Source: Chiloscyllium plagiosum (Eukaryota). Taken from it: DNA of 64,000 bases. Where the stretch lies: the NCBI RefSeq assembly GCF_004010195.1, contig NC_057718.1, positions 49,050,021 to 49,114,020 of the forward strand. The letters run 5' to 3'. Of the stretch, positions 1 to 63,960 are shown piece after piece; position 1 is the first letter of the stretch; each line of letters begins with the position of its first letter. The notes beneath the pieces were generated by a model. It was not told the origin of the DNA. It ran no database searches and was given only the letters and a program-made list of their open reading frames with translations. The translations under genes were made by a program, and so were the position numbers.

Positions 1-750
1 TCACTATTTTAACATGGCTGATCTAGTTCAGTCAATGGTAACCTCTAAGATGTTGATAGTGGGTACTCAGTGATGCTAATATAATCAGTTGTTAGGGATT
101 AGATTCTCCCTTATTGGAGATGGCCATTGCCTGCTACTTAATGGGCACAAATCTTACTTGCCACTGAATCAGCTTAAATCAGCCTTCATTCCTGATGATT
201 TGGAGATGCCGGTGTTGGACTGGGGTGTACAAAGTTAAAAATCACACAATACCAGATTATAGTCCAACAGGTTTGTTTGGAAGCATTAGCTTTCGGAGCA
301 CTGCTCCTTCACCTGATGACTATTAGACTATAACTTGGTGTTGTGTGATTTTTAACTTCATTCCTGATGAAGGGGTTTTGCCTGAAACTTCAATTGTCCT
401 GCTCCTGATGCTGCCTGACCTGCTGTGCTTTTCCACTCTCGACTCTAATCTCCAGTATCTGCAGTCCTCACTTCAGTCTCAACCAAAGTCTTGTTCAAGT
501 CTTGTAGTGAGTGGGACTGAGGTGATTTGCCCTCCAACATTTATAATCATCTCCCTTTGTTCTCAGTTTGAGTCCAACCAATGGGGTTTTCCCCAAGATG
601 CCCATTGCCATTTTAGGGCTCCTTCATGTCATACAATGTCAAATGCTGCGTTGATCTCATGGACACTTACTCTCACCTCCCGCCCTGAGTTCAGTTCTTT
701 TGTCCTTGTAATAAGGTCAGAAGCTGAATTGCTCCTGCGGAACTCAAACT
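1..750 (-). mobile_element. Old CR1-group LINE debris (second lineage), interrupted by the PLE fragments
   Basis: Reverse complement resembles plus-strand copies at 13530-14090 and 56250-57770. Confidence 0.5.
184..475. mobile_element. Nested Penelope-like pLTR fragments: family C collapsed inverted pair inserted at the start of a family A arm
   Basis: Family C sequence (ggtgttggactggggtgtacaaagtt...agctttcggagcactgctccttca) is flanked by duplicated cttcattcctgatga (184-198, 356-370) and followed by a family A arm ctgatgaagggg...gctgcctgacctgctgtgcttttcca. Confidence 0.75.
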
Positions 751-1817
751 GAATATAAAGGTTATGCGCATGTCAAAAGCCAAAGGTCCTTGGAAAATGG
801 TGGGAGGCAGTGTAGTACATAACAGGTGAAGACTAACCGCAGATTGCCCACAATCCTTTCATTCATTCTTTCTGTAAAAACATTTTATTTATTTTACAAT
901 TCTGTCATCAATTGCACTCTGCACCTGGAGTGTGAAGTAAATGATCTTAAATTATTCCATGCTACTGACTTGATTTGTTAAGAGATCAAAAGTATTTTCC
1001 TGAGTTCTACACAGATTTTCTGCCACTTACAGTGACTCACAGCCAATAATATGAACTGTATTAAACTGCCCAGCTGAAAGTATGTTGTGACTTTCGCTAA
1101 CCCCTTTTCCATCCATTGTATTCATGGATGTCTCTATGCTGTTATTTCTCTTTATAAAGCCCTGCCTTTAGCTTTGCTTTCTGTAGCTTGAATCTTTGCT
1201 GTTGGTCATTTAATGTTACATTTCAATTAAAAATTAACCACTGCTGATGGTATGCAAACATTTTGTAATTATGCAATACTTTGACATCTAAATAGGTAAA
1301 AAATATTACACAATGGGATGAAAGACGTCTCTAGAATGGATATTAGAGTGTAATCATGAAGCACAGAAGGGGAGAATTTGAACCATTGCATCTATAGTAG
1401 ATAGCAAAAGCAGACGAGATTCCTGGTCAGCCCTGTGGTGTGAAGAAATTGAAGCCCCACTGTCACTATCCGCAGCTTCAGGTCACAACATGGAAGTGAA
1501 GTGTACATTTCCTTCCAAAACTCGGGTGGGCCAGTGGCTAATCAACTGGTGTGGATCAGTTTGAACCTTATTCTAGCTGCAGTGAGTTCAAGACCTGCCT
1601 TTTGCCCTAACTGTGGTAGACATATCAGTGGGCAGTGACATGAAGACAGCCATGTTTACATTTCATTGACACATTTAAATCAGCTTCCCATACAATCATT
1701 GCAAGCCAGACTAAAACATTACTGTTGCTAGGGTGAGTTTTTCGAGTTCAGTTAACCTGCAGAAAAAGAAAGCACAAGCTATGAGCATTTTGAATCTCAC
1801 CTTTAGTTGAAGAATTA

Positions 1818-2105
1818 TAGAATCTTATCACTGTCAAAACAGGCCATTCAGCCCATTGGGTCCTCACTGACATTCTGAAGAGCATCCCACCAATCCCTGG
1901 GACCCTACATTTATCATGGCTAATCCACCTAATCTGCATACTATGGGCAATTTAGCATTACCAATCCACCTACTCTGCATATCTTTGGACTGTGGGAAAA
2001 ACCCCACACAGACACAGGGAGAATGTGCAAACTCCTCACAGATAGAATTGAACTTGGGTCCATGGTGTTGTGAGGCTGTAGTGCGAACCACAGAGCTATC
2101 ATGCC
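1818..2105 (-). mobile_element. HE1-like V-SINE, diverged
   Basis: V-domain ggagaatgtgcaaactc and gggcaatttagcat, with a tRNA-like head. Confidence 0.8.
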
Positions 2106-2284
2106 AACCCAAGAAAAGCAGAAATGCTTCCACCAACTTTCTATGATCATGGTCTTTCTTTCTCTTAATTTCTATAATCACAGACTTGTTCTCAGCCCTA
2201 AAACACAGACTTTCTTGCCCTGATAACTCTGATGAGGTCCTATCAGCAGAGTGCCCAGCTACAACGTCCTGACTTCCGCTCAAT

Positions 2285-2594
2285 TTAGATTAGATTACTT
2301 ACAGTGTGGAAACAGGCCCTTCGGCCCAACAAGTCCACACCGATCTGCCGAAGCACAACCCACCCAGACCCATACCCCTACGTTTACCTAACACTACGGG
2401 CAATTTAGCATGGCCGATTCACCTAACCTGCACATTTTTGGACTGTGAGCGGAAACCAGAGCACCTGGAGGAAACCCACGCAGACATGGAGAGAATGTGC
2501 AAACTCCATACAGACAGTCACCTGAGGCGGGAATTGAAACTGGGCTCTGGCCCTGTGAGACAGTAGTGCTAACCACTGTGCCACTGTGCCGCCC
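2285..2594 (-). mobile_element. HE1-like V-SINE, full length
   Basis: tRNA-derived head with A/B boxes, V-domain, CR1-like 3' end (gggccgaagggcctgtttccacactgta) and (aatct)n tail. Confidence 0.9.
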
Positions 2595-5615: not shown

Positions 5616-5818
5616 AAAATTGAAAGATCTGCAGTTGCTGTAAATTAGAAACAAAAACAGAAATTGCTGGAAAAGCTCAGCAGGCCTGGCAGTATCTGTG
5701 AAGAGGAATCAGAATTAATGTTTCAGGTCTGGTAACCCATCCTCAAGGCATTAACTCTGATTTCTCTTCAGAGATGCTGCCAGGCCTGCTGAGCGTTTCC
5801 AGCAATTTCTGTTTTTGA
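5616..5818. mobile_element. PLE family D collapsed inverted pair
   Basis: Arms aaaaacagaaattgctggaaaagctcagcaggcctggcag / ctgccaggcctgctgagcgtttccagcaatttctgttttt; TSD tccttaacYaaatg at 5602-5615 and 5819-5832. Confidence 0.8.
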
Positions 5819-6072
5819 TCCTTAACCAAATGCTCCTTGACATGCTTTATCATGACTGGCTACAGTTGTGCTAGTTGTTTTCTTGTCAATAAGTACTTGG
5901 ACTCCTGTCATTTGAAGAAGACTGAGGTCAAGAAATGCTTTATACAGAAGATCGGGAATTCTTGAATGTGAAACATGTTTAAGTTCTCTATTCACCCATG
6001 TGTTGGAGAGCTACCTGTGATGTAATTTTAATCTTAAATGATATACTTCCTGGGTAAAGTAGGTGGACTCGA

Positions 6073-7507: not shown

Positions 7508-7547
7508 GAGTTCTGAGGAAGGGTCACTGGACCCGAAATGTTAACTC
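7508..7547 (+). ncRNA. Minimal type I hammerhead motif (PLE family D), start of a solo arm running to about 7625
   Basis: gagtt-CTGAGGA-a-gggtc(actg)gaccc-GAAA-tg-TT-aactc: 5-bp helix I, 5-bp helix II; predicted cleavage after 7542. Confidence 0.75.
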
Positions 7548-9600
7548 TGATTTCTCTCTCCACAGATGCTGCCAGACCTGCTGAGCTTATCCAGCAATTC
7601 CTATTCTAGTTCCAGATTTTTGCAGTTGTGGCAGTAATCGAGCCTCCGAAAATAGACAATTAAGCCGGGCCCAGCAACAGGGAAAGAAGTGTATTTAAGG
7701 GCCTCACAGCTGTCAAAACTTAAAACTTAGTCCGAGCTCTACAAATGCATTGCTGCCTCAGAGCTTGCATTCTGAAAACCCTATCCTAAGGTTACACATT
7801 GGGAATCCCTATTCTATAATGTCAGACCCCCTGGCAAAGTCTTATCTGTTTCAACATAACCATTTCCCATTCTTCTAAATTCCATCATAACACCAATCTC
7901 ATCAGATGTATGTGCATAAAAAGCAGTCATTGAGACTGTGCAGACTTATCAGAAAGTTGCAAGAAAGGAAGAGAGTAGTATATCTGTTGTTATGAAACTA
8001 GAAAAGAGGTCTGTCATAGAGTGAAAAAAATGTTCAATGATAATCTTCTGAGGGAAAGATCTATTCATTTCTCCCTCAGCTGTAAAGGTAAACATCAGGA
8101 TCCCACATGCATGTGCAAAGGGTGGAATACATCTTTAAGGCAGCTATTAGTAACTTCTACTGTTTCAGCCACTGTGGCATAGAGCATCTTTCTGGTGCAC
8201 TTGTGGCTCATGACATAGTTCCAAAATTAAAATGTTTGATCTAATTTTATCGCCGAAAAAATGTTTAATTGTGCCCTCTATTGGAACTTGAACTCTGAAG
8301 ATTGTTAGTCCAGAATCTCTGTGGAAGGCCCACTGGGGTGAATGCAGAGTGGGTCAAGACACATAAAATATATTAAAAAGACAGATTTGCTGCATCTGTA
8401 CTTTAAAAGTGAATTCCAGTATACTGGTATACATCTGGTCTCAAAACAAACACATCAGACCAAAAACTCAAACTAAAAGATTTCACTGTTTTGGAACTTG
8501 TCTTTTCAGTCCAGATTACATTTTCTTTCTAGATTACATGTTCACCATCCATGTCAGTTGCTAATATTTTATATCAATACACTAATTTTTAAATTACTTA
8601 TGGAGTTATTGTGAAAGGGAAAGGAAAGGGTCAAAATATCTTTCCTATTTTTAAAAACATAAAGCAAAGTCGGCTATGGTGAGGTTTGTGGCAGAATCAA
8701 ATGACAGGTCTGATGAGGCCCATCTTAAGTTTGAAGTAAGCAAGCTGTGTCACTTGTGCTTTTGCCAAGCCTTGTTAATGAAGGCAGATTATAATTTATT
8801 AAATGGCTTCTAATGTCATTACATTCTTCATTAACATAAAGCTTCCTATCTTTCCAAACAAGCTAGATGTTGATAATTCTTAACATGGAAGTCAGAGTGA
8901 GTACCTGACAACTTCAGCACACCATTTGCTCCAAAGCTTCTCCATGTTGGACATGGGCACCATCCAATATGTGCCAGCCTTGAAGAACCCACAAGGCACA
9001 TTTCTGTTCCACTCAAGGACACTTCTACCCTTCAATGCTATGCCTTGAGCTGTTGACAGCTGTCATTGTAATTCTGCTGAGCTAAATATATTGCAGTCTA
9101 TTGAAACAAAGGCATTTTAAAAAATATTTTTGTTAATGTCAAGTCAAAAAGTCTAGTATTTATAGGAAGGCTTTCATGTCCTTGGGGCATCCCAGAGCAC
9201 TTGCCAGTTAAGAAGTGTTTTTTGTAATGCTGTCAGCATTGTAATATGATCACACTGTGCACTCAGGGGGAAGGGGGGTGGTGGGTCACCCAGCAAATGG
9301 ACTGGACCAGGCTGAATCTGTGGGGTCTTTGCTTTCTTCATGTTGTACACATTCTGAGCCGAACTTGATGCGCCCAGTATCCCTGTCATGCCATTCCCTG
9401 CCTTTTTATGCTTTGTCTCTTCAGCCAGATTCATGAGGCTCATATTAATCATGTCTTGACTTGCCATTAAGTGCGGACACAAAGCCAGGAGGAAACTTGT
9501 CATGGTTGTCATCAATCTTCAGCCACTTCACTGAACATCGTCTTTGCTCAGGGGAGTTGGCACAGTAAGCCAAGAGCAGCTTCCAATACCAGTCAGTAGC

Positions 9601-9688
9601 TACCTGACGAAGGAGCAGCACGCCAAAAACTTGGACTTTCAAATAAAGCTAGACTATAACCTGGTGTTGTGTGATTTTTAATTTTCTG
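9601..9688 (+). mobile_element. PLE family C solo arm, degenerate
   Basis: acCTGACGAaggagcagc...caaataaa...gactataacctggtgttgtgtgattttta. Confidence 0.7.
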
Positions 9689-11045: not shown

Positions 11046-11518
11046 TCACAGCAAAAGGGATAGTGTCTTCACAGTGAACATTTACGTTGATCTGCTATAA
11101 GTAATTTGAAGCATCACTTTCCCTGCCAATTTATTTCTCAAATCATTTCAGGAAATGTCTTTTAAGTCGTTTTCAGGAAGTTAGATTTTTTACTGTGGTA
11201 ACAACCGGAGGGTTGCTACATACTTAACAGTTAGACCGAAACACTACTGAATGAGAAACCAGGCTCCAAATTAAAGACAGCAATGCAACATACCACTAAG
11301 TGGTTGAAGTATTCTTTAAGAAAAATGTGCTTAGTAAAGTAATTAGAAAAGTGAGGGGTTTTCAAGGTCCGACATAACATGCCTCACGTTCCCTTTGAAT
11401 TGGATTCTCTTTTATCAATTACCCTTTCTTCCAACATTATTCTAAAATAGATATCTCTTAATTTCTCATTAACATAGACAGATGCTAAAAGTAGAGCTAA
11501 AGATGACATACTTATTAG

Positions 11519-16039: not shown

Positions 16040-16834
16040 GATGCTAACGTAGAGGTAGGTGATAGCTTCAAGTTCCTAGGAGTAAATATCACCAAAGATC
16101 CACCCGATCCATCCACATGGATGCTACAGTTAAGAAAGCACATCAATGCCTCTATTTCCTCTGGAGGCTAACAAAATTCGACTTGTCTACAATGACTCTT
16201 CCTGAAGAAGGGCTTCTGCCTGAAACGTCGATTCTCCTGCTCCTTGGATGCTGCCTGACCTGCTGCGCTTTTCCAGCAACACATTTTTCAGCTCTGATCT
16301 CCAGCATCTGCAGTCCTCACTTTCTCCTATAATGACTCTTGCCAATTTGCATTGATGCACCATAGAAAACATGCTATCCAGATGCCTCGCAGCTTGGCAT
16401 GGTAACTGCTTTGCCCAAGACTGCAAGAAATCACAGAGTTGTAAATGTAGCCCAGTCCATCACGCAAACCAGCTTTCCTTCCATTGACTCCGTCTATACT
16501 TGCCACTACCTCGGGAAAGCAGCCAACAAAAGACCATTTCCACCTTAGTTCCACTCTCTTTCACTCTCTTCCAACAAGCAGATGATGCAAAAGTTTGAAG
16601 ATATATACAGAGAGATTTAAAAACATCTTCCTTGCTCTTATCAGATTTATGAACGGAACCCTCACATTGATCTTTCTCTGCACCTTCTCTATAGCTGTAA
16701 CACTATATTCTGCATTCTGTTCTATTACCATGATGTACTTGTGTAAGATATGATTTGTCCAGGTGAGCATGCAAAACAATACTTTTCATTGCATCTTGGT
16801 ACATGACAATAAATCAAATCAAATCAAATCAAAT
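16040..16834 (+). mobile_element. Rex1/Babar-type LINE 3' portion, interrupted by a PLE arm
   Basis: Encodes FKFLGV and KKAHQCLYFLWRL, typical of the Rex1/Babar RT C-terminus; tail aataaatc(aaatc)n. Confidence 0.75.
16201..16326 (+). mobile_element. PLE family A solo arm starting at the hammerhead core
   Basis: cCTGAAGAagggcttctgcctGAAACGTCgattc...cactttctc; TSD ctaYaatgactctt at 16187-16200 and 16327-16340. Confidence 0.88.
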
Positions 16835-17877: not shown

Positions 17878-18260
17878 CAGTTCTGACAAAAAGTCATCAA
17901 CCTCTGAAACATCAATTGTGTCTCTCTCCACAGATGCTGCTTGGCCTTCTGCGTATTACCAATGTTTGCTGTTATTAATCTTTGTGGAGGTTTGGGGGAA
18001 GTCGAAGGGAAAAGAAGCAATTTAACCCTGCAGCAGAGTTAAAATTCCCTGTGGCACTTTTCTTCCCTAGGTTCTAATTGTAACTTGTTCTTCTAAGAAT
18101 CCTGAAAGTGCAAACCAATGGCTCTGCAGAAGAATCATATCAGACTTGAATCGTTAACTCTGTTTCCTCTCCACAGATGCTGCCATACCTGCTGAGTTTC
18201 TCCACCATTTTATGTTTTTATTTCATATTTCCAGCATCCACAGAATTTTGTTTTTAACTC
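17878..18260 (+). mobile_element. Two degenerate PLE family D arms (about 17878-17975 and 18122-18255)
   Basis: Both contain ctctccacagatgctgc preceded by a decayed ctgNNNa...gaaac core. Confidence 0.6.
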
Positions 18261-25765: not shown

Positions 25766-26033
25766 TTGCTGTGGTTCTGTTCGCCGAGCTGGAAGTTTTT
25801 GTTGCAAACGTTTCGTCCCCTGTCTAGGTGACATCCTCAGTGCTTGGGAGCCTCCTGTGGGACAGGCCACTATAAATGCCGGAGGAAACACCACAGACGC
25901 GCTTCACAGGAGGCTCCCAAGAACTGAGGATGTCACCTAGACAGGGGACGAAACGTTTGCAACAAAAACTTCCAGCTCGGCGAACAGAACCACAGCAACG
26001 AGCACCCGAGTTACAAATCTTCTCACAAACTTT
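25766..26033. mobile_element. PLE family B inverted-pair mini-element
   Basis: 94-bp arms 25766-25859 and 25905-25998 with one mismatch, a TATAAA-containing spacer and a tail on the right arm only; perfect TSD ggatcatacctt at 25756-25767 and 26034-26045. Confidence 0.9.
25804..25843 (-). ncRNA. Minimal hammerhead motif (PLE family B)
   Basis: gca-CTGAGGA-t-gtcacct(agac)aggggac-GAAA-CG-TT-tgc; helix I gca/tgc, palindromic ACGU helix III. The plus-strand twin at 25921-25960 has a helix I mismatch. Confidence 0.75.
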
Positions 26034-26264
26034 GGATCATACCTTATTTAGAATTCTTTAAACTTTCTTAATCAAAGCTAAAGACCAATTTCAATTTTAA
26101 ATACTTGACAGTAGAAATATTCTCTTGATAAAGTTTACCAACATAGTCATTCAGCCTGCCCTGGCACCCAGTCCCATTGATGATTTTAACATTTCCTTGT
26201 GATGCCACTCTTGGAATATTTTCAGCTTTTCAACTCCTGGTCTATTTGAGGCTCTCTCTTAGTG

Positions 26265-30150: not shown

Positions 30151-31734
30151 CAAGGTAGTTGCCAAAGTTCATTACTCAGCTCTTAAAAAGCTGATTGACC
30201 ATGAGTTTTCTTAGCACTAGCATAGAGCATGGCCTCAGGAAAGAGGGGTGCCAATTTAAGAATGAGACAATGAGGACTTATTTCTCTCAGAAGGTTATGA
30301 GTCTTTGGACTCTTTCTCATAGAGTCCTTGTATATATGGAAGGCTGCGATAGATGCTTGATCAGTAAGGGTGGTTGAGGGTTATGGGAAAATGCAGGAAA
30401 GCACGCAAGCAACATTGGATCAACCATGATCCTATTGAATGGTGGTGCAGGCATGACGAGCCGAACAGTCTGCGCCTGTTCCTACCTTTTTAAAGTCTGA
30501 TGGCCACTAGGGTAGAGGATTAGTTGACACTGAACACACCTGCCACCATACTTGGCCAGAAAAAGGGTAAATTGTGATCCTAAACTTTACTACCCACCCA
30601 TCCCCATTGCCGATGCTGCCCGCTGGTTGAGTTTTTTCAAACTGTTTTTGTTCAAATTTCCATGATCTCCAGTATTTTGCTTTTTAAATTCACCCTACAA
30701 GTGTTGTCGTGTCTCATTATGTCATTCAATCAGTATAATGATAAAGTTCAGCATGGCGAACAATACATTACCTGCAATAACATGATTCATTAACAGTATA
30801 GATTTTTTGATAATTTCTTTATTCCCATGATAATACTTACCCATCTATAGGAAACATTAAAAAATTAGATCAATAACAAAATTGTAAAACAAACACAATA
30901 CATAAAATTTCAAATTATATTGAATGTTTTCTGCTGGTAAACCACGAATGAATTTTATTGTGGATATTTTGAATACCCTATTCTTCTCAATGGGCAGCAT
31001 ACAAAACTCCTTTGTGGCTTCATATTTTGGAGATTACTTTTGTTACACAGGCCTATCTGCAGGATAAAGCTTTAGCCACAGTATGTAGATGGCTATGATT
31101 ACCATTGACTGGTTCATGACTTGTCTGAAAAACAGGTCAAGTTCTTTGCTTGTAAACAGCACCAAAATAGTTTCAGAAGAGTTTCTAATTGCAACTGATG
31201 AGCAACCCATCATATTAATCCTCTGCTATCAGCACTGTATACTCGTCTGTATAAGAATAGCCCTGATCTCAGCAGCTCTGTATTCAACCTTGGATTTCTT
31301 TTTCGACGTATTTGGAAACACCAGCTTCTTTGCCTGAGCCTCTGTGCACAAGAGGCAGACATGTGCTGGCTTTATATGGCTTGACGGCACACAATGAAAT
31401 CAGTTTCTGAGCAATTTTTATCAAGCCAAAAACTCGGCTCGAATTTTAAACCTTCTTCCCGTGTTACATCAATGCCAGATATAAATTTAAATGAAAGACT
31501 TCACAACCCATAAAATGATTTAAAAAAAAAGACACAGACACACAAAAGAGAAATGGTTTTAATTGTTTTAAAGAAGACTATGCCCAGCAGACATCTTGTT
31601 TGTACAGCATATTGCTGTTCCCATGCACTATTTATTTCTGGTAATTGGAACATGTAGATTTCTCCCGATTCTTCCACACACAATGAGCTTCCAAACCACA
31701 GTCATGCTACTTGGTCTTGGCCAGTCACTATCAT

Positions 31735-32338
31735 AGCTGAAAAATGTGTTGCTGGAAAAGTGCAGCAGGTCAGGCAGCATCCAAGGAACAGGAGAATAGA
31801 CATTTCGGGCATAAGCCCTTCTTCAGGAATGAGGAAAGTGTGCCCAGCAGGCTAAGGTAAAAGGTAGGGAGGAGGGACTTGGGGGAGGGGTGTTGGAAAT
31901 GCGATAGGTGGAAGGAGGTCAAGGTGAGGGTGATAGGCCGGAGTGGGGTGGGGGTGGAGAGGTCAGAAAGAGGATTGCAGGTTAGGAAGGCGGTGCTGAG
32001 TTCGAGGGATTTGACTGAGACAAGGTGGGGAGAAGGGAAATGAGGAAACTGGAGAAATCTGAGTTCATCCTTTGTGGTTGGAGGGTTCCTAGGCGGAAGA
32101 TGAGGCGCTCTTCCTCCAACCGTCATGTTGCTATGGGCATTTCCAACGCTCCTCCCCCAAGTCCCTCCTCCCTACCTTTTATCTTAGCCTGCTGGGCACA
32201 CTTTCCTCATTCCTGAAGAAGGGCTTATGCCCGAAACGTCGATTCTCCTGTTCCTTGGATGCTGCCTGACCTGCTGCACTTTTCCAGCAACACATTTTCA
32301 GCTCTGATCTCCAGCATCTGCAGTCCTCACTTTCTCCT
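31735..32338 (-). mobile_element. Penelope-like element 3' end with GIY-YIG C-terminal remnant and inverted pLTR (family A)
   Basis: Minus strand 32036-32135 reads IAT*RLEEERLIFRLGTLQPQRMNSDFSSF (PLE endonuclease C-terminus). Inverted arms of about 167 bp at 31735-31902 and 32137-32303; TSD ccagtcactRtcatag at 31721-31736 and 32339-32354. Confidence 0.9.
32209..32244 (+). ncRNA. Minimal hammerhead core (PLE family A), weak helix I
   Basis: attc-CTGAAGA-a-gggc(ttat)gccc-GAAA-C-GTC-gatt; helix I has only 3 of 4 pairs. Confidence 0.65.
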
Positions 32339-32984
32339 CCAGTCACTGTCATAGGCAAAGAGGAATCAGCAGGTAAACGGCACAACTTTAACATTACAAT
32401 TCTAATATGTGACTAATTAATAGTTGTTTGCTGGTATAGAAGTCGAGTACTGTAGTTGAATTACTTTTAAAACAGTAGCTCTGTAGAATTGACAAACTAC
32501 TTAGGATATTGCTGAAGACGGACATATCTCATCAGATTATTTTTGTCTTGCACTCAGAACAACTTGCAAGAGACACCAAAGTAAAAGGATAACATTTATA
32601 CTGTTCAAGAAGAGAGGGCTGATTGGTGGAATCAAGGGCATAGCTAATTGCAAAGGGTGGTGCAGTGGCATTTTCCCTACCTCTAGGCCAGGAGCCCTGT
32701 GATCAAGCCCCACCTGCTTCAGAGCTGTGTAATGACATCTCAGAATAAGTTGACTAGAAAATAACTTTTTTTTGCAGTCAAGTTTACTTTTAAATCACAA
32801 AGTGTACCCACATAGACTGCATTGCCATGAGAACCCCATGGGGTTCCATGTAAAATGCTTTTGATTGAATGACACCTTGCACTTTTCTAATGTGTCGATA
32901 GAATGTTTGCCATATTTGAATTTACAGCTGCACATTTACTTTCTTTACATATCTTTATGTGCTACATCTTGCACTCCAATTTCC

Positions 32985-33795: not shown

Positions 33796-34004
33796 ATAGA
33801 CGTAAGTAATATGCCAATTTTATACAGCTACCATTTTGAAGCTAATTCAATAAAAATATCGCTGGGATCATGACTAAAGGTGAATATGTTGTAAGGGATA
33901 TATGAGGCTGGAAGCTGTATACCTTCAAGTCAGTTCGAGTGACTGTATAGTAAGAACCATATTATCATTTGACAGAAACAAGGCTTACAAATAGCAAAGC
34001 TGTG

Positions 34005-34191
34005 GAGGTGCCGATTGTTGTGACTAGGGTGGACAAAGTCAGAAGTCACACAATACCAGGATACAGTCCAATAGGTTTATTTGAAACCACAAGCTTTCGG
34101 AGCACTGAAGAAGGAGCAACGCTCCGAAAGCTTGTGATTTCAAATAAACCTGTTGGATTATAATCTGGTGTCATGTGACTTCTGAGTTTTA
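34005..34191. mobile_element. PLE family C inverted-pair mini-element
   Basis: ...cacaagctttcggagca joined to CTGAAGAaggagc(aac)gctccGAAAGCTTgtg; TSD acaaatagcaaWgctStg at 33987-34004 and 34192-34209. Confidence 0.85.
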
Positions 34192-34846: not shown

Positions 34847-34993
34847 AGGAGAAAGTGAGGACTGCAGATGCTGGAGATAAGAGTGGAATGTGGTGCTGGA
34901 AAAGTACAGCAGTTCAGACAACATCTGAGGAGCAGGAGAATCGACATTTCAGGCATAAGCCCTTCATCAGGATTCCAGCACCATACTCTCGAC
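34847..34993 (-). mobile_element. PLE family A arm with a short inverted remnant
   Basis: ggagaaagtgaggactgcagatgctggag...gacatttcaggcataagcccttcatcagga, then ttccagcaccatactctcgac. Confidence 0.82.
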
Positions 34994-39438: not shown

Positions 39439-39909
<471 letters not shown>

Positions 39910-47345: not shown

Positions 47346-47560
47346 TGTGTTGCTGGAAAAGCGCAGCAGGTCAGGCAGCATCCAGGGAACAGGAGAATCG
47401 ACGTTTCGGGCATAAGCCCTTCTTCAGCCCTGAAGAAGGGCTTATGCCCGAAACGTCGATTCTCCTGTTCCCTGGATGCTGCCTGACCTGCTGCGCTTTT
47501 CCAGCAACACATTTTCAGCTCTGATCTCCAGCATCTGCAGACCTCACTTTCTCCTCAAAG
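47346..47560. mobile_element. PLE family A perfect palindromic mini-element
   Basis: 82-bp arms 47346-47427 and 47430-47511 are perfectly complementary with a 2-nt loop; perfect TSD attatacagcttc at 47333-47345 and 47561-47573. Confidence 0.95.
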
Positions 47561-49496: not shown

Positions 49497-49710
49497 AGTC
49501 AAGATTAGAGTGTGCTGGAAAAGCACAGCAGGTTAGGCAGCATCCGAGGAGCAGGAAAAAAAAAAACAAAAAACCAAACAAAAAAATAATTAGACGTTTC
49601 GGACAAAATGATTTTCCTGCTCCTTGGATGCTGCCTGACCTGCTGTGCTTTTCCAGCACCACTTTAATCTTGACTCTAATCTCCAGCATCTGCAGTTCTC
49701 ACTTTTGCCA
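49497..49710. mobile_element. PLE family A-related inverted pair with centre deleted
   Basis: Arms gtcaagattagag..gctggaaaagcacagcagg / cctgctgtgcttttccagc..taatcttgac; approximate TSD acaaataaaacagt. Confidence 0.85.
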
Positions 49711-52700
49711 CAAAATAAAAACAGTGTCATTGGCAAACTTAGATATACCATGACGTTCTCTGGGTCATTATTAAATATGGTGACTAGTTGACACCCTTGT
49801 ACAGATTCTAATTATTTCCTTCCAAGTAGGACTTACTTACGAAAGATTCTGCAAAATGTCAGGGAAAAAAAAGTGTTAAAAAAGGTAGGGAAACCAACAA
49901 TCTGCTGAAATGCATCAAGTAGTGTTTTCCTGTAGCATGTCTTGCAATAACACAAATTGATCTATTTTCTCCTGTAATGACACCAATTCTTCCATACTAA
50001 CTAGCTTCAAGGCAATAATTTACTGTTTCTAACATTGCACAATAAAAGTAAACAAAGGGTACTATCTACTGAACTTAACGTGAAAAATAGTGTTACTGTA
50101 GCATTTTCAAACCACCAATGCACCTAACTAATGGACAATGTGACTATACCAAGAATAAACCACTGGTCACTTGAACATGCTTCATTCTGTGGTGAGCCAT
50201 TACATCTCCTGTAAATAGTAATTCTGGTTCCTTTAACATTTATCTTCTATTCCCCCATTTAAACATTCCAATTGAACTTGCATCTAGTGAGTTCCATCTC
50301 CAGATTCAAATATTAACCTTTACCTTTCTTACAGCGCTCCCTCGGCGCAACTAAATGAACTTCAGATTAAAAAAAAAGTAACTCTGGTTCTATAACATGC
50401 AGTAAAATATCAACAGGGTTACAAATCAGTCTTGGCCCATTTGCATCTAGGACTTCATACACTCAAAGTAAGAGACTGGAGGACTTGATATTTTCTAATC
50501 AACTTGTTCAGGGATGTTGTTACACCCCTCCAGAACAGGTGAAACTTGAACTCAGGGATGCTACCATGGTACCAAGAGCCCCATCCAGACTGGATGACCA
50601 ATGGAAACTGGTTAATAGGTTTCAGGTCATTAGGCCCTTGACTTCATATTCACAAAAGGGTCTAATGGAAAATTGAAACCTTGGCCTTTGAAATAGCAAA
50701 TTAAAACTAATTTGAGAATACAGTGTGAAAGATGGCTCCATTTTGGGAGCTGCACCCACATAATTTTCCACCCCAAGCCATTGATTTCTCTCAGTGTGTT
50801 GCACAAAGATGCCTGTTACAAAGTCACCTCAGTACTTCTTCCTGAATGTCCACATGAATCATCACTCATGTCTTTAAAAAAAGGTATGCAAAAGGCAAAC
50901 AACCACCTTTTTGGAGTCAAATCCAGATTGGACTTCACTTTAAAATGGAATAAATGAAAAAACAAAACAAGTCAGGTATAAAAGGCAAGTCAAATTTGCC
51001 AAATTGAGAGAGAGTCATAAACCAGTGACACAGAAGTGCACAGGGAAAAAACAATTGGAATGGAGGAAGACTATTTATGAGGTTTAATTGTTACGATGTT
51101 CATATGGACATTATTTGATTGGGGACCTTTGGGATAGGTTCCTTTTTGTCTCCTTTCCTTTGATTTTCAGTCACAAGCTACCATCTGTAGGAATGCATTC
51201 TCCCTTCCCCTAACCTATGACTATGAAAAGGACGAGGAACTCACCACATGTTGTTCTCCCATTCAGTTATTTTCTTCACCCAAAGATAGGGTAATGCAAC
51301 ACCCCTTTTCCTTAATATGGCTCAGCTTTGGAGCACACCTCCATTTTAAAATGTTAACACATCACCATAATTTCTTCCATATCAATCTGACCGGAACTTA
51401 ACCTTTAGTTGTTCTGTTTGCTTAAGTATTTCACTATCAAAGAAAACACTATTTTGGTCCTAACCACTCACCCTGCTATTTGAGAAAAATTACTATAAAT
51501 AAACATATTTTCCTAAGCTCATGAGAAAGTGAAGGATATATTTTAGCAAATGTGGAGTGAAATAATTTAAGAATGGTTCTTTCAGTTAATAAAATAAGCT
51601 ATTCAGTAACAATGTAAATACTATCGACCAAAACCATTAAGTTTTGACCCTGTCAAAATAACCTGTGTGACAGCTTTTCTCTTGGAGGTCTTTCAAATGC
51701 TCAGGGGTTATAAACAACTGGGTTAGCTTGTGTTAATATTGAAAATTTTAAATGAAGTCCTGATACAGTGGCTGTAAATTTAAAATTTAACCAAAGATTG
51801 TTACCTCAGGTTCACATAGCTAGGACCTTGTATCATATACACACTAGCATTTAGACGTCAAAATGCAGACCTGCCTTTTGCAGAATTAAAAAAAACATAT
51901 TTTGGTCTACTAAAAGATCCATTAAGTAGATCATTTCAGACATAATCATACTGACACGAAATTCCTAGCCTAAACCAATAACAACAATGCATGATACTCC
52001 TCCATGATAATAACCTCTTCCTTACCCCCAAATGAGCTTTTAACATTTGATAGAATTAAAAAGGTAACAATAACTGCCTATAATGGGACACCTACAAAGT
52101 CCAGTTCCACCTGATGTTGAATGATGGAAGTCAGAAGTGTATATTTCCTAACACAAAAAAGTTCTCACTTTCAAGGGAGTTTGCTATTTTAACACACAGT
52201 CTGTAAGACAGTATGTTGGAAGAAGTTAAACTGCAGTGGTCTGACTTCTGCCTGGCATAGTTTTAGCTATAGTTTCTTTTTTGACAGTATTTGTGCTGAC
52301 AAATTCTAACCATTTCGGTTTGGTTTTGGGAATTTTTTTTTTAAAAAAGAACTTACTTCCCTCTCATTCATAAATGCTTCTTCCTTATCTAGGGATAGAT
52401 CTGGTTGAGAGTACTCCTATATCTAGTTGGCAGTGGATACAAACAATGACCTGAAACAGTTGGTTCTTCACCTCAAAAAAATGCTTTAAGATAAGGCCTC
52501 CCAGACCCATAACTGGAAGAAAAATGGTACAAGAATTGGAACCTCGTCCAGGCCATTGGAGTTTAGTCTGACAGCAGCTACTGGCACCATGATCTTCGCC
52601 CCACCTGAACAGCAATATTAATAAAATACTATCCCATTACACATCACCTGGTCCTACATCACTGAATACATGCCATCATTGGAGTTCCAATATTTTGAGC

Positions 52701-54500: not shown

Positions 54501-56685
54501 GTTCACATCAACTGCTGTGTCTCACTGCTGTACTACCCACCTACCAATGGTACATCAGTCACGAGCCCCCACCTCTCATTCATTGCTTCATCACACCCTC
54601 TCTTTTCTGCTGCAGGCAACACACCCTCTCCAGCCAGTTCTACCCCACCCTCAATCTCTCACCTCAGTTTGTAAATAGTGCCAACTATTCTTAAGAAACA
54701 AAATATGCTATCTACATCACCCTCACTGACATCTGAACTTACAGGGCCAAGTGTTGGATAACAAGCAGCTTTATTTAAAGTTTAAAATTCACAAATCAAC
54801 ATGGCCACCTTCATTGAAGCATCCCCAGCCTAGGCCCTAGCAAATATGACAAGGCTAAAAAAAAACAAAAGTTAGCATCTATATACCTAATTCTCCTCCG
54901 CACAATTGCTTCCCCAAACCATTTTCATCCCCTCAGCAAAAGCCTCTCTGTGCCTCCCACCTTTTAAAAGTCAGAGAATGCAAGCAGGCCAGACAGTGCT
55001 GCAAGAGCAAGAAAAACCAAGATGATAGGAGAGGTCCTTCTTTCTGACACTCTCAGCCTTTAATTGTATTTAACTCCATTAGCATACTTGCAGACCCAAT
55101 CAAGATGCAGTCTCCAATGTCCAATGTGAGCTTCAAGAGCAGCACAAACAGAAACCACTCAATGTCCAGGTGCTGAGCTTGTTGCTTGGTGAAATCAGAC
55201 TAGTACCCTAATGGCTACAGATACTGGAGTTCAAAAAGGTGTGTGCAGTGTCAGAGCTGTTTGCCTCCAACAGGCTGTGGAATTAGAGTGGTTCTTTGGA
55301 GCGCCTCAGTTTAAAGATGACGGAGGTGGGGATACATTCTGCAACACAGCCTACTTCACCAATTTTAGGGTCAAGTGGTTTGTGCAGAATCCTTTATGTC
55401 AAGGATCACCCAGTAAACTTCAGATACTTTTAACTCTGGAAACCACCAAACTCTGTCTTTGCATCAAGAGCCAGTACAGAATTCAGTAAAATGATCTGAA
55501 AAGTTTGACATCCACTACAATTGCTGTGGTGGTGGGAGTCTTCCTTATTACTAAGTACATGTTTGTCTGTGCAAGATTAAGGGAGTATAGTCTGGATCAC
55601 TAGACTGAAAACAACTGACAGCTTGTATCAATTCAGGATTACCCACTGATCAATCTGCTGACTCTGCAGATTTATGGTGAAGTAGTTCTATGCACACACA
55701 CCGATGCCCTCAAAATGCCATGCACTATAGGATGTACACTATGGAGGCAAATCATACTCAGTGCTAAAAAGGAATAAACAAAATTAGGGCCATGGAGCCC
55801 AATTTCACTCTTTTTATCCAATTTAGGCTGTAATTACTTAGAGATCTCCCAATGGGAGTTCACGCTCACTTAAAAAAAAGTGTTCATTGTCCTTCACAAA
55901 ACAGTACAAACATTCGTTAACTGCATTTTGAACTATAAAATTTGACATCTCCAGGCCAAGGATCATATCTTTAAAATCTTCAATATATGGTAATTTGGAC
56001 TCATTTTCTAACTGGTTTCACCAATATATTTTGACACCTGAACAATATTTAAATGAGATATTAAAAACTCTTGACAGACTGTTTAATAGTGAAAGACATA
56101 ATTAAATCCTGAATGCTCTCTTTAATAGGAATCTATTCAAGACACCCAATCCACTGATATCACACACGGTTAGTTCATTCAGAAAAAGGTAGCAGTACAG
56201 TCCTTCATTAAAGTACCAAATGAGACTATATTTTTGAATTTCAAGAGAATTAGCTGTACCATTAGCCAAGTTATGATATCAGCATTCACTGATAGTGTGG
56301 AAAACTGCTCTGTTATGTGCTGTACATGAAAAGCAGGTCAAATCCAACCTAGTCATTTGCTGCCCTATTAATCTATTCCTCTCAAAGTGATGGAAGGGGT
56401 CACTGCCAATCCTATTAAGCAACACTTGCAAAGGAACAACCTGCTCAGTGATGCACAGCTTGAATTCAGGCAGAGTCTATTGGCTCCTGGAACTCAAAAA
56501 GAAGCCTTGATACAAACGTGGACAAAAATATGTACCTCTCGAGGCGAGATCAAAATGACAGCCCTCCAATGAACTTCTCTCCATCATGAGGGCCAAAGTG
56601 ATAATGTTTGTGAATAATTCCAAAAAGGTCAGCTCCATTTGCAACTTCACATTTTGCATACGGGCATTAGCTGTTAAATGTTACA

Positions 56686-56916
56686 GGTTAGAGTGGTGCT
56701 GGAAAAGAACAGCAGTTCAGACAGCATCCAAGGAGCAGGGGAAAAAAAAAAATCAATGTTTCGGGCAAAAGCCGTTGATCAGGGATACCCTGATGAAGGG
56801 CTTTTGCCGAAACGTCGATTTTCCTGCTCCTTGGATGCTGTCTGAATTGCTGCACTTCTCCAGCACCACTACTCCAGAATCTGGTTTCCAGCATCTGCAG
56901 ACACTGTTTTTACCAA
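56686..56916. mobile_element. PLE family A-related inverted pair
   Basis: Arms meet at atcagggataccctgat; perfect TSD gttaaatgttaca at 56673-56685 and 56917-56929. Confidence 0.88.
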
Positions 56917-57014: not shown

Positions 57015-57141
57015 AGGAGAAAGGTGAGGACTGCAGATGCTGGAGATCAGAGTTGAAGAATGTGGGGCTGGAAAAGCACAGCTGATCAGGCAGCATTCAA
57101 AGAGCAGGAGAATCGATGTTTCGCACACAAGCCCTTCATCA
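57015..57141 (-). mobile_element. PLE family A solo arm, degenerate core
   Basis: ggagaaaggtgaggactgcagatgctggagatc...gcccttcatca. Confidence 0.82.
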
Positions 57142-57931
57142 CGGAATACCCATCAATGCCCTGGAGGTGATTAATGACCAGAAACTGAACTAGACCAGCC
57201 ACATATTGCGCTGTGGCTATAAGTGCCAGTCAGGAACAAGGAATTCTGAGTTGAGTAATGCACCTCTTGTCTCCCTATTCCAAATCAGGAGTGGATGTAT
57301 GACCTCCCTTGTCTGGCTAACTGCAGCTTCAACACCAAACAAGTATGGCACCTTCCAAAACAAAGTACCCTGCTTGTTGGCACCCTGTTCATCACTTTTC
57401 ACATTCATTCCCTTCACCAATGGCAACAGTGTGTACCACCTACAATTTGCACTGCAGTAAGTTAGCATGGCTCCTCAAACAGAAACATCCAAACCCACAA
57501 CTTCTACCACCTAGAAAGACAAGAGTAGCAGATGCATAAATACACCATAACTCACAGGTTCTTTCCAAGTAACACTCTATCTTGAACTGGAACTGTAATT
57601 GCTATCCCTTCACCTGTTGCCAAGCCAAATTTTGGAACTTCCTAACAGTGCTTTGATGTTCCTGCCTCAAGGACCGCAGCAATTCAAGAAAATAGCTCAT
57701 CCCTTTTTCCACTGTATTAGAGACAGGCAATAAGTGCCTGCCTAACCAGTGATACCCACGTTCCACTGAACAAATAAATGCAAGGAACAAACAGGTTCAT
57801 GGCCAGTTTTCACTTACACCTGATGGCAACTGGTATGAGTAGGAGAGTTTGATGGTCAAAATAATTTGCACCCTCAGTTTCCATTGTCCTTTTAAAAGGG
57901 TAAGCAGCTTTTGACTGGCTTAATTGTTTAA

Positions 57932-58149
57932 AGCTGAAAATGTGTTGCTGGAACAGCGCAGCAGGTCAGGCAGCATCCAGGGAATAGGAGAATCGACGTT
58001 TCGGGCATAAGCCCTTCTTCATTCCTGAAGAAGGGCTTATGCCCGAAACATTGATTCTCCTGTTTCCTGGATGCTGCCTGACCTGCTGCGCTGTTCCAGC
58101 AACACGTTTTCAGCTCTGATCTCCAGCATCTGCAGACCTCACTTTCTCC
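57932..58149. mobile_element. PLE family A palindromic mini-element
   Basis: Arms of about 90 bp meeting at cttcttcattcctgaagaag; TSD cttaa(a)ttgtttaaa at 57919-57932 and 58150-58164. Confidence 0.92.
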
Positions 58150-60600: not shown

Positions 60601-60812
60601 TTCTTGCAATGGCCTGTTTGACAGGACAACAAATTTCTCAGTTTCTCTTTCTACCATTGGGAGCTCTGGAGCCCCCTGTGTGACTCAACATTGACAAATA
60701 TATTGTGGACTGGGAGTACGTGCAATGCTAGTAGATGGACCTAGATCTTCTAATACATCATTCAAGTTGAAGTGAAAGTGTGTGTAAGCAAAATTACAAA
60801 AAACAACCCATT

Positions 60813-61117
60813 TAGAATCCCTACAGTATAGAAACAGGCCCTATGAGTCCACACAGACTCAGACCCATTTGCTTGCCTTATTACTCTACATTTACCCTTA
60901 ACTAATGCACCTACCCAACAGATCCCTAAACATTGTGGGCAATTTTAGCATGGCCAATTCACTTAACTTGCACATCTTGGAATGTGGGAGGAAACCCATG
61001 CAGACATGGGGAGAATGTGTAAACTCCACACAGACACAGTCGCCCAAGGCTGGAATTGAACCTGGGTGGCTGGCACTATGAGGCAGGAGTGCTAACCACT
61101 GAGCCACTGTGCTGTCC
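60813..61117 (-). mobile_element. HE1-like V-SINE
   Basis: V-domain and tRNA-like head as in the other copies. Confidence 0.87.
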
Positions 61118-63369
61118 TAAATTTGTCTTGTTCATATTGTTTTCTAACCATAGAGATGATCTGAGTGACAAGGGCCATCATTTTAAAATTATAAACAAAG
61201 GAATGAAGAACAGCTAAGAGAAAACAGCTCATGTAAAGAGTTATTACAGCTTGGAGCTCTTCTTGAAGGTGTATGCAGTCTCTTTTAAGAGATGGATACA
61301 TATTGATCCAAAAAGAAAATATCTATGAGGAATTAGTCGCAAGATTGGTCAAGTAAAGAGACAGTGCATGGAAGATATGCCAAATTTCCTCTCTATTGTA
61401 AAATAGCATGGTTTTACTGTAAACATTTGGGTCCATAGACTGAAAGTCAAAAATTCGACCATCTGATAGACTGAGCTCTGAAGTCCAATTCAGGAAACTC
61501 TGAACACTTTAGGGGAATGTTTGCAGAGATCAAATTATTGCAAAAGACTGCAAAACAAAAAGTGTATCATGCTCAGAAAGCCACTGGTACATTTTCACTG
61601 CAGTAGAACTTTTAAAAATCAATTTTTATAAACGCAGTGGGTACTTGGTGATCTATAACATAAGGCTAAAAAGGCAAAAATTGTGTCAGCTAGCACTCCT
61701 TTACCAATGTAGAATATATACCAATGCGTCAAATAGTTAAGGTAGTTCATGATCCAACTACTGAGCTCAGACTAAATACAGCAAATGGTGCCATACAAGG
61801 AGTCCACAAAAAGCCAAATGTTCCAACAGTGCTTTATAAATTAATTTCAGAAATGTTTGTGCTGCATTAGCTGTCAGAGTTAGTATGTAATATATCATTA
61901 AGCAAAATGTTCATGATATCACTTTCTCAGAGCATGCCAACATGGGGGCATTAAGATCCCACTCCATCTTAACTGGATTACATCAGGAGCTGTAATAAAT
62001 ATCTGTTGAATCTTTCAGTACCATGTTACCCACATTTATTCTTATGTTACAGCAGCTAACATAAGCATTGACACATCAGTCACAAATAGCCTGGGAGGCA
62101 AAACCCTACACATCACAGATCAGTAGTGAACACTGGTTTTTCATTGACTTGGAGGATTTTTCTCACCGTGGAGCTGATGACCTTAAGTTCTGGCAGATTT
62201 GAAAAAAAAAAAAAAAATGGGTTAAAATCACACATTACCTTAACTGGAAAAGTCACATCTTTTATAAAGAGACAAACTTTTCCTCAGTTGTACACAAGAA
62301 CCATGCAAAACACTTGCCAAATATTCTCAGCACCCAGCAGTCCCTTAAAAACACACAACTTCATCAAGAACAGGTTGGTTAACCTTGGATGATTTAACTA
62401 GATTTCAAGAAGCATTACAAACTTAAAGTAAACTACTGCAACTTTTTGATGAACCTAATTACATTAGTCATAAGTTATTACTTAACGACCTTACCAAGCA
62501 ATATCTTTTGCATTGCTCAGTTAAGCCAGAGAATCTGCTGTTTTATGAAAGACAAGACATCAGTATCATGCAGTCTGATTCTAATGTGGAAGACTGCACA
62601 CCATCAAGGTTACAACAGCATTAATTCAAGAGATCAGATTATCTTTGTCATTAAATTTAAGTCCAGCATAAAAATTAACAAATAATGCAGCTCTTGAGTA
62701 TGATGCCCATATATCATGGTCAGTACATTCAAGCTGCAGTAAGTCAGCATGCTTTTAAGAGAAATGCTCATGAAAAGCCCTAGCATAGCAGGTCACCCAA
62801 CAGTATTAGTGATTATATACTCCATCTTTACTTCAATCACTGGAAGTATGACATGCTGCGAAAATGCTGCTCTATAATCTAGTAATGTACAGCAGACACA
62901 TGTCCTCGTGAATGTAATATACAATAGGTTATTGCAATAAATTCTACTGGGTTCTTTATTTACATATTCATATCCGGTTGTGAGGTATTATGTAGACATG
63001 GGTGCAGCAGGTAAAATATCCTGCTGCACTCTATAGGCCAAAATTTAATGGAGTGGAGGACCTAGCAGAAAATAGGTTACCCTTCATTGAGAAGGATGGT
63101 GGTGGTAGTGGCGATGAGACAGACAGAGACAATGATCACAGAATCTAGGAGAGATTTTTCAACACAAGTATTAAGAGATTTTTTCCGTGGAGCACAGGAA
63201 ACAATGTACTTTTCCAGGCAAAGAAATAATTGCTATTTGAGTTTCTAAATGCTTATTTTCAATAAATTTCCCATATGAGGCAGTGGAAGCTTCACAAAAT
63301 AAAACACCTTAAATTTGTGAATTGCTTATCTTAACCATCAATATAAATAAAATCAACACCATATACTTG

Positions 63370-63825
63370 GATTTGCAGTTTACTGAACTTAGTGGGAAAG
63401 CAAGTGGCAAGGATGACAGTCTGCAGAGGGATATAGAGAGGTTAAGCAAGTGAATAAGAACTTGGCAGATGGGATAGAAATATGGGAAAATGAGGTTATG
63501 CACTCGGGCAAGAAGAGGTGCTGAATATTATTTAAAATGAAGAAAGATCGCAGAAAGCTACAACACAGGAGCTGTCCTCATGCATAAATCACAAAATGCT
63601 AGCAAAACATTCAGCAGGTAATAGGGAAGGCAAATGTAACGTCTGGAATAAGTGCAAAGGAAATAGAATGTAAAAAATACAGAGGTCTTTCTAAAATTAT
63701 AAGGCATTAGTCAGACCACAGCTGGAATACTGAACAATTTGATCTTTTATGGAGGGAAGCAGAGGCACTGGGGAGTCATTGGAGTTTAGAAGAATGATAA
63801 TTAAAACATACAAGATTCATGGGGG
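63370..63825 (+). mobile_element. Older CR1 RT fragment
   Basis: ctgcagagggatatagagaggttaagcaagtg...ttggcagatggga; similar to 26480-26830. Confidence 0.7.
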
Positions 63826-63841
63826 CTACAATAATATAAAT

Positions 63842-63960
63842 AAAAACAAGGATGTGCAAATGCTGGAAATGTGAAACAAGAGAAAAAAAAATTGCTGGAG
63901 AAAAGCAGTAATCTGGCAGCATCTGTGGAGAGTTTCACATTCAGTGACCCTTCATCAGAA
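63842..63960 (-). mobile_element. PLE family D solo arm, degenerate
   Basis: tggcagcatctgtggag...gtgacccttcatcagaa. Confidence 0.7.

What the first reader, a model, noticed from the sequence alone, without database searches (positions are those of the whole stretch)
184..63960. Window-wide population of hammerhead-ribozyme mini-retroelements: four families, one fold
Seen: roughly 15-18 short insertions share a core CUGANGA + one extra base + helix II + GAAA + helix III + NUH, although helix II differs completely between families: A GGGC-UUAU-GCCC (32221, 47438), B GUCaCCU-AGAC-AGGgGAC (25932), C GGAGC-AAC-GCUCC (34113), D GGGUC-ACUG-GACCC (7521). Helix III is a loopless palindrome (ACGU or AGCU). 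Established: this is the minimal type I hammerhead described for Penelope-like element pLTRs, thought to cleave as dimers, and an extra base after A9 is tolerated in natural hammerheads. Inference: about one copy per 4 kb implies a very large genomic reservoir of non-coding, ribozyme-bearing elements mobilised by PLE enzymes, easily mis-annotated as MITEs. I cannot tell whether these shark families are already described.
Basis: partly seen in the sequence, partly recalled or inferred. Interest (0 to 1): 0.85.

Follow-up and report, generated by a model that had tools for sequence, protein, structure and literature searches.

The report
Penelope retroelement leader-end insertions, hammerhead-bearing
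The short ribozyme-shaped insertions are real and very common, but they are leftover end pieces of four ordinary protein-coding Penelope-like jumping genes, and their end points suggest they are copies of the uncut front end of the element's own messenger RNA.

Summary
Confirmed: 18 related insertions lie in the window. Ten strict minimal-hammerhead cores sit in 7 of them, against 0.02 by chance. Forty fixed genome stretches give one cluster per 4.1 kb. They are not independent non-coding elements or MITEs. Each family is the terminal repeat (pLTR) of a GIY-YIG-coding Penelope-like element in this genome (D weakest). Hammerheads, tails and inverted copies are published, and the scan reached this reading twice before on other DNA of this genome. 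What is added here: family A copies start about 4 nt before the core (6,327 exact matches), not at the cleavage site (215; control 162). That point lies about 30 nt after a TATA-like box, sometimes with an extra G. Fold-backs pair one short and one tailed arm (27 of 30 resolved, of 37) from one template. Best reading: dead-on-arrival cDNAs of the uncleaved, capped mRNA leader, primed at two internal sites. No cleavage or transcription start was measured.

The parts
195..330 (-). Family C arm with partial fold-back, core broken
356..474 (+). Family A (older subfamily) arm starting near -6, core broken, directly adjoining the C copy
5636..5821 (.). Family D fold-back, core decayed
7508..7630 (+). 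Family D monomer: complete minimal hammerhead (core 7513, helix II 5 bp, helix I 5 bp), starts at the 5' strand of helix I
9598..9685 (+). Family C monomer, core broken
16199..16328 (+). Family A monomer, long (tailed) 3' end, starts at -3, 14-bp target duplication with 1 mismatch
17879..17975 (+). Old family D-related fragment
18144..18244 (+). Old family D-related fragment lacking most of the core
25766..26035 (.). Family B (Penelope/Poseidon-type) fold-back: short left arm, tailed right arm, cores at 25840 (-) and 25924 (+), 13-bp target duplication with 1 mismatch
31730..32339 (.). Family A inverted unit: short arm on the minus strand runs back into the 3' end of the GIY-YIG coding sequence; tailed arm 32137-32339 keeps the TATA-like box; 16-bp target duplication with 1 mismatch
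34001..34190 (.). Family C fold-back, core 34105 intact but helix I lost, 15-bp target duplication with 1 mismatch
34847..34972 (-). Family A tailed arm, core 34970, complete helix I
47346..47556 (.). Young family A fold-back, cores 47427 (-) and 47430 (+), helix I lost on both strands, 15-bp target duplication with 1 mismatch; folds as one hairpin
49497..49714 (.). Older family A fold-back lacking most of the core
56685..56915 (.). Older family A fold-back, 14-bp target duplication with 1 mismatch
57015..57147 (-). Family A tailed monomer starting near -4, core with an insertion
57932..58149 (.). Young family A fold-back, short plus tailed arm, 13-bp target duplication with 1 mismatch
63857..63960 (-). 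Old family D arm, core broken

Best explanation
The insertions are dead-on-arrival products of four autonomous Penelope-like retrotransposon (PLE) lineages. SHOWN: each family's sequence is the pLTR of an element whose GIY-YIG coding end lies upstream (D only by a short fragment). In A and C the same pLTR also runs straight into the start of the coding region, so the hammerhead and 'tail' also precede the ORF. Family A copies have two 3' ends about 35 nt apart and one dominant 5' end about 4 nt before the hammerhead core. Fold-backs join one short and one tailed arm made from one template. INFERRED: a TATA/Inr-type Pol II promoter in the pLTR starts the mRNA at the first base of helix I. The RT-endonuclease nicks both target strands and starts cDNA at the two internal tail sites described in vitro. 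When it uses the leader copy of those sites it runs off the capped 5' end after about 95 or 130 nt. One primed strand gives a monomer; two primed strands give two cDNAs joined head to head at short microhomologies, the fold-back. The templates were not cut by the hammerhead. Most copies lose the TATA box, many lose helix I, and fold-backs bury the motif in a long hairpin, so they are unlikely to be active ribozymes or donors.
For: ORF links: A has RVT_1 (E 1.4e-8) and a weak GIY-YIG hit in a 561-aa frame; B; C; D. Tail-to-ORF continuity. 5' ends: 6,327 matches break at -5/-4, 215 at the cleavage site, 162 at a control site. 13 of 20 core-bearing copies that reach the ORF start also begin between -5 and +6. 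An AT-rich box lies at -36 to -38 in A and about -40 in C parents, and TATAAAT at -53 in B. G directly precedes A(-4) in 7 of 16 monomers with a resolved target duplication, 3 of them as a single untemplated base, with no single untemplated A or T (read by eye). Arm pairing: short+long 27, long+long 3, short+short 0, unresolved 7 of 37; arms share alleles at 126 of 129 site comparisons against about 85 expected. In 10 of the 27 the short arm reaches at least 12 nt further 5' than the tailed arm, which simple snap-back of one cDNA cannot give. 7 of 101 long ends run at least 6 nt into ORF-side sequence. In vitro precedent: PMC11167929.
Against: No transcription start was observed: laid RNA reads showed no molecule starts or ends and 93% ran on into unrelated sequence. 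The G excess is modest (9 of 16 non-parent bases, p about 0.011). In fold-backs it is confounded by purine-rich inverted arms. Family B short arms do not show a clear single 5' end in my small, query-biased set. D. virilis Penelope has a TATA-less internal promoter (PMC2377424), so an internal element could still drive some copies. The three pattern anchors differ in sequence and subfamily coverage, so the 30-fold ratio is approximate, and only family A was counted this way.
Confidence: 0.62

Rival explanations
1. The copies are ordinary 5'-truncated 3' ends of PLEs, and the pile-up at -4 comes from the RT stalling or switching template at the hammerhead fold or helix I, not from reaching the RNA's start.
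For: Heavy 5' truncation and inverted 5' copies are standard for PLEs (PMC8557442). The pile-up coincides with the helix I 5' strand in A, C and D. Two earlier scan notes read it as truncated tail ends.
Against: 16 of 70 unselected A arms and 10 of 33 C arms pass through the motif into upstream sequence. The monomer fold is weak (-11.5 kcal/mol, helix I not formed in A). A stall predicts neither the TATA spacing nor an extra G, and some copies carry ORF-side bases.
Confidence: 0.2
2. One reading: short units are self-propagating non-autonomous PLE derivatives (SINE- or retrozyme-like), transcribed alone or by read-through and mobilised in trans.
For: Near-identical copies of the 47346 fold-back exist at many loci (40 scored hits at 93-100%). 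The cis-acting tail is retained. Non-autonomous PLEs and retrozymes are described. D monomers share one start.
Against: That centre has 76 exact matches among hundreds of thousands of copies and occurs in both orientations and with three allele pairs also found in ORF-linked copies. Junctions differ across 37 fold-backs. No tandem hammerhead array is in the window. Only one centre was tested, so a minor lineage elsewhere is not excluded.
Confidence: 0.1
3. Leader-end origin is right, but fold-backs form by self-priming (snap-back) of one strand followed by endonuclease resolution, as proposed for rotifer Penelope, not by priming on both target strands.
For: Arms share one template. Junctions often show 2-4 nt microhomology. 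Self-priming is proposed in PMC3846280 and endonuclease resolution of the tail in PMC8557442.
Against: In 10 of 27 short+long units, and in window 31730-32339, the unpaired spacer belongs to the short arm, which lacks the tail, so neither arm can be a copy of the other unless the spacer was later flipped. Short-ended monomers with target duplications exist (11 of 23 monomer calls).
Confidence: 0.06
4. They are MITEs of a DNA transposon.
For: Hairpin shape and small size.
Against: Long variable target duplications, an asymmetric tail, variable centres and continuity with RT/GIY-YIG coding sequence.
Confidence: 0.01

Closest known systems
[quoted passage not shown]
   Same: Same core, extra base before G10.1, G10.1-C11.1 pair, palindromic loopless helix III, short helix I, several families per genome, mostly single motifs from truncated PLEs, and pairs 100-700 bp apart on opposite strands.
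   Different: Sharks are not named in the parts read. The extrapolated count here (about 2 x 10^5 strict cores) is far above the 4,000 (coelacanth) and 9,000 (Xenopus) reported, though the descriptors differ. The paper proposes cleavage-based processing; copy ends here do not show it.
Complex insertions of endonuclease-positive PLEs: inverted 5' copy plus 30-40 bp tail at one end (Craig 2021, PMC8557442, passages; Arkhipova 2013, PMC3846280, parts 1-4 of 5)
   Same: Inverted head-to-head pLTRs, tail on one side, target duplications, and a putative TATA plus Inr in the pLTR.
   Different: Here ORF-less leader-sized units dominate. Their 5' ends pile up at one position. The data favour a sense template primed twice over self-priming on an antisense template.
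Anolis Poseidon PAc in vitro mechanism (Frangieh 2024, PMC11167929; parts 1-2 of 4 read)
   Same: Two internal RT start sites bounding the tail, both target strands nicked and extended, hammerhead cleavage not needed, no reads ending at the cleavage site.
   Different: That work is one Poseidon element in vitro. The parts read do not describe run-off cDNAs of the mRNA leader or one-template fold-backs. In A and C the ORF starts at or after the tail, not inside helix II.
Animal non-LTR retrozymes (Li 2026, bioRxiv 10.64898/2026.07.22.740005; parts 1-3 of 5 read; its supplements were not seen and may list chondrichthyan families)
   Same: pLTR-derived, hammerhead-bearing, non-coding; reported in one chondrichthyan.
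   Different: Retrozymes are head-to-tail tandems. The window's copies are monomers and head-to-head fold-backs.

Membership tests
PLE minimal type I hammerhead | Core boxes CUGANGA, GAAA and UH with a paired helix II closed by G10.1-C11.1 and one extra base after A9 | tested here: met
   10 strict motifs in the window against 0.02 in shuffles. N7, loop II and H17 carry the recurrent non-CpG variation, and H17 is G in none of the B, C or A arms and T in all D arms (the patterns used to collect arms favour conserved cores).
PLE minimal type I hammerhead | Loopless palindromic helix III | tested here: met
   ACGU in A, B and D (D often decayed to AUGU), AGCU in C.
PLE minimal type I hammerhead | Short helix I (4-5 bp in the paper) | tested here: inconclusive
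   Parents give 5 bp (D), 3 bp (B), 3 of 4 with a U-U gap (A). Only 4 of 18 window arms keep it together with an intact core.
PLE minimal type I hammerhead | Self-cleavage as a dimer | not testable with these tools
   Copy ends are not enriched at the cleavage site (215 against control 162), which speaks to the inserted templates only.
Endonuclease-positive PLE | pLTR joined to an RT plus C-terminal GIY-YIG coding region | tested here: met
   A: Pfam RVT_1 above cut-off, GIY-YIG below cut-off at E 5e-4. C: 26% identity to A over 224 aa, E 5e-24. B: GIY-YIG-type frame read by eye and RT hit 610 nt upstream in L139. D: only a 36-55 aa endonuclease C-terminus in 2 loci.
Endonuclease-positive PLE | Optional 30-40 bp tail, inverted 5' copy, target duplication | tested here: met
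   A ends near +91 and +126, B ends 37 nt apart; duplications 9-17 bp.
Neptune/Nematis versus Penelope/Poseidon clades | CX2-5CxxC linker before GIY-YIG (present in Neptune and Nematis) | tested here: met
   Present in A and C; not seen in B frames. No tree was built, so Neptune versus Nematis is not settled and D is unplaced.
Non-LTR retrozyme | Head-to-tail tandem units each with a hammerhead | tested here: not met
   No such array in the window; copies are single or inverted.
MITE (DNA transposon) | Symmetric terminal inverted repeats with a short fixed target duplication | tested here: not met
   Asymmetric ends and 9-17 bp variable duplications.
Self-propagating non-autonomous PLE | Fixed structure inherited as a lineage | tested here: not met
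   Tested for one centre only: 30 of 76 matches examined; in the 20 not pre-selected by similarity, both orientations and three allele pairs occur.
Named Repbase or Dfam shark families | Match to a curated consensus | not testable with these tools
   Neither library is held.

The most novel reading that the evidence does not exclude
In this genome the commonest product of Penelope-like retrotransposition is not a truncated 3' end but an integrated run-off cDNA of the capped mRNA leader. The hammerhead is the first structure transcribed, stays uncut in the RNA that is copied, and a dimeric RT-endonuclease primes both target strands on one RNA at two sites about 35 nt apart. That would explain the long-puzzling inverted pLTR with a one-sided tail, and it has left on the order of 10^5 to 10^6 insertions, many of them perfect hairpins that could feed RNA editing or small-RNA pathways.
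Probability: 0.45. Interest if true: 0.65.

Novelty: new member of a known kind. Interest (0 to 1): 0.42.

Why it matters
The class, the ribozyme and the inverted-plus-tail layout are known, so this is not a new kind of element. Its value is as a very large natural record of an unresolved mechanism. How PLE inverted repeats form and whether the hammerhead cuts in vivo are stated as open in the papers read. The junction counts here give sharp, cheap predictions: a capped start at -4, no need for cleavage, and two-strand priming on one RNA. For annotation, roughly 3% of the sampled bases (11,541 of 391,676) are these ends and should be labelled as PLE fragments, not MITEs or microRNA precursors.

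Tried and rejected
Rfam scan: no hammerhead family matched; the hits were microRNA-like hairpins below gathering score. A second peak of 5' ends at the cleavage site, suspected, was rejected by genome-wide counts: 215 against control 162, and 25 of the 100 listed rows look like one-base deletions in intact copies. A self-propagating lineage for the 47346 centre, suggested by ten same-orientation top hits, was rejected once 20 further matches were read. A two-RNA origin of the arms was rejected by allele concordance. G enrichment at -5 in the first 100 pattern rows (G 42, C 31, A 19, T 8) was not used alone, because inverted arms are purine-rich. Sequencing runs: no RNA holder listed on record; one raw RNA run laid 0 reads and the other showed only passenger reads with no starts or ends. 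PDB sequence search of the A protein gave 0 matches. The sequence look-up of earlier scan notes gave nothing. Literature searches found no description of these shark families or of leader run-off copies: Penelope+hammerhead+shark (4 papers, none on topic), Penelope+inverted repeat+twin priming, Penelope+a shark common name+transposable elements, Penelope-like+pLTR+inverted+TATA, Chompy or Penelope, Penelope-like+untemplated G+cap, Penelope+Neptune+Poseidon+shark (0 papers). The library lacks most subscription papers; Lunse et al. on dimer cleavage was not held and is known only through a review. The random sample stayed at 40 stretches.
Full report
Positions below are relative to the first C of CUGANGA (+1); in family A the predicted cut follows +28.

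OBSERVATION. The quoted motifs are present at the quoted places. Self-comparison gives 18 related insertions. A strict descriptor finds 10 motifs in 7 insertions against a shuffle mean of 0.02. Of 18 arms checked, 11 have intact core boxes and 4 also keep helix I. Rfam finds no hammerhead. In 40 fixed-position 10-kb stretches (391,676 non-N bases) there are 23 strict motifs and 95 family clusters, one per 4.1 kb (inverted pairs more than 60 nt apart count twice). This extrapolates to about 2.1 x 10^5 strict cores (Poisson 95% range 1.3-3.1 x 10^5) and several hundred thousand insertions.

IS IT A HAMMERHEAD? The features match the minimal PLE motif of PMC4209133. Among 173 A, 39 B, 68 C and 35 D arms, recurrent non-CpG variation in the motif falls mainly on N7, loop II and H17; these arms were collected with fuzzy patterns and include query-selected loci. 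Helix II stems differ between families but stay paired. Within families the recurrent variants show no two-sided compensation, as expected for unselected genomic copies. Activity was not tested.

WHAT THEY BELONG TO. Family A: window 31903-32136 leads to copies whose upstream frame is a GIY-YIG C-terminus. L036 holds a 561-aa frame with RVT_1 and a weak GIY-YIG match, followed by the A pLTR. The first look for its linker region returned 109,329 candidates, of which 150 were scored. Family B continues into a GIY-YIG-type frame without the cysteine linker. Family C continues into RT-thumb and GIY-YIG frames with the linker. Family D has a short endonuclease C-terminus 254-265 nt upstream in 2 loci. 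By the linker criterion in PMC8557442, A and C are Neptune- or Nematis-like and B is Penelope/Poseidon-like; no tree was built. In A and C the tail also runs directly into the ORF start, so a transcript carries hammerhead plus tail at its front as well as at its rear.

3' ENDS. I fetched 60 loci covering the first 62 rows. A-family 3' ends fall near +91 or +126. Monomer calls: 11 short, 11 long, 1 unclear. Fold-backs: 27 short+long, 3 long+long, 0 short+short, 7 unresolved (p 4e-6 against an even split). Target duplications of 9-17 bp were found in most of these loci and duplications of 13-16 bp in 7 of 17 window units. This is the published one-sided tail, which PMC11167929 ties to two internal RT start sites with both target strands nicked and extended.

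5' ENDS. Exact genome-wide counts for young A sequence: 6,327 arms break from the parent at -5/-4, 215 at +28/+29 and 162 at +33/+34. The anchors differ, so the ratio is approximate, but there is no cleavage-site peak. Of 39 rows from 38 loci that reach the ORF start, 20 have a recognisable core; 13 of these begin between -5 and +6 and 7 extend upstream. C and D arms start 1-9 nt before the core by eye (the 20 D loci were chosen by similarity to the window copy). Parents carry an AT-rich box at -36 to -38 (A), about -40 (C) and -53 (B), and the A and D starts sit in YYANWYY-type initiator matches (consensus recalled). In 16 monomers with a resolved duplication, G precedes A(-4) in 7: 3 as a lone untemplated base and 4 within target microhomology. 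Parent C accounts for 3, and no lone A or T occurs (by eye; 6 monomer rows without a usable duplication were left out and one duplicated locus was counted once). Untemplated G is taken as a cap signature for LINE-1 (PMC4859970, passage). Against this, RNA reads gave no starts, B gives no clear peak, and D. virilis Penelope uses a TATA-less internal promoter, although a rotifer pLTR has a putative TATA plus Inr.

HOW FOLD-BACKS FORM. Arms agree at 126 of 129 comparisons over four polymorphic sites, against about 85 if independent. That points to one template; two RNAs from one source locus, or later conversion, are not excluded. In 10 of 27 short+long units the tail-less arm reaches at least 12 nt further 5', as it does in window 31730-32339. 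Snap-back of a single cDNA cannot give this unless the spacer was flipped afterwards, so priming from both target strands fits best. The 47346 centre has 76 exact matches. Among 20 not pre-selected, about 10 have the tail on one side and 8 on the other, on three allele backgrounds, so it is a recurrent junction. Seven of 101 long ends continue at least 6 nt into ORF-side sequence, which needs a leader or tandem template.

CONSEQUENCES. 54 of 70 unselected A arms and 23 of 33 C arms lack the upstream box. Fold-backs fold as single hairpins of about -180 kcal/mol that bury the motif. They are best seen as inert by-products that host transcripts carry passively; 93% of laid RNA reads ran on into other sequence.

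KNOWN VERSUS NEW. Genome-wide minimal hammerheads from truncated PLEs, opposite-strand pairs, tails and inverted pLTRs are in print. Two earlier scan notes on this genome reached 'dead-on-arrival PLE ends'; I had reached the same class before reading them. My searches found no account of these families or of leader run-off copies, but Repbase, Dfam and most subscription papers could not be checked. Other papers seen: PMC6155905 (passages), PMC6765202 (passages), PMC2377424 (passages).

VERDICT. Real feature, new members of a known kind. Interest 0.42, for the scale and for the testable mechanistic reading.

Noticed in passing
window 39439-39909 (-) and 42857-43354 (-): Two exons of a dual-specificity phosphatase (Pfam DSPc); the C-terminus resembles DUSP10 (recalled, not tested). 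Elements above 43354 are probably intronic.
   Followed up: partly
L167:559, 601, 639 (A +15, +57, +95), run X21: A>G is 2-4 times commoner in one read direction (23, 21, 31% against 8, 9, 8%), while two known DNA alleles show no direction bias. Possible A-to-I editing of fold-back hairpins; no same-animal DNA, and reads may come from few loci.
   Followed up: partly
L167:735-740 joined to 540-541, run X7: DNA contigs jump from about +191 to +196, inside the ORF start, back to -5/-4, once with a G between. This suggests head-to-tail tandems and perhaps a third priming site.
   Followed up: no
L167:575 (A +31): A subfamily change T>A turns the U-U gap in helix I into a pair, giving a perfect 4-bp helix.
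   Followed up: no
window 11473-13043, 20367-21818, 23437-23935, 28914-30093, 40186-40451: Related decayed RT-bearing LINE fragments (RVT_1 at 11796-12545; repeats), CR1-like by recall.
   Followed up: no
window 1812-2594, 36494-36767, 61039-61117 and others: A dispersed SINE-like repeat family (D5, D8, D11, D12), HE1-like by recall.
   Followed up: no
families A and D, about +46 to +80: A and D share a 33-nt block at 85-91% identity downstream of otherwise different hammerheads, just before the short 3' end; a candidate protein-binding motif.
   Followed up: no
L048:4572-4970, L153, L214, window 195-474: Copies of one family inserted into or abutting another family's copy, hinting at shared target preference.
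   Followed up: no
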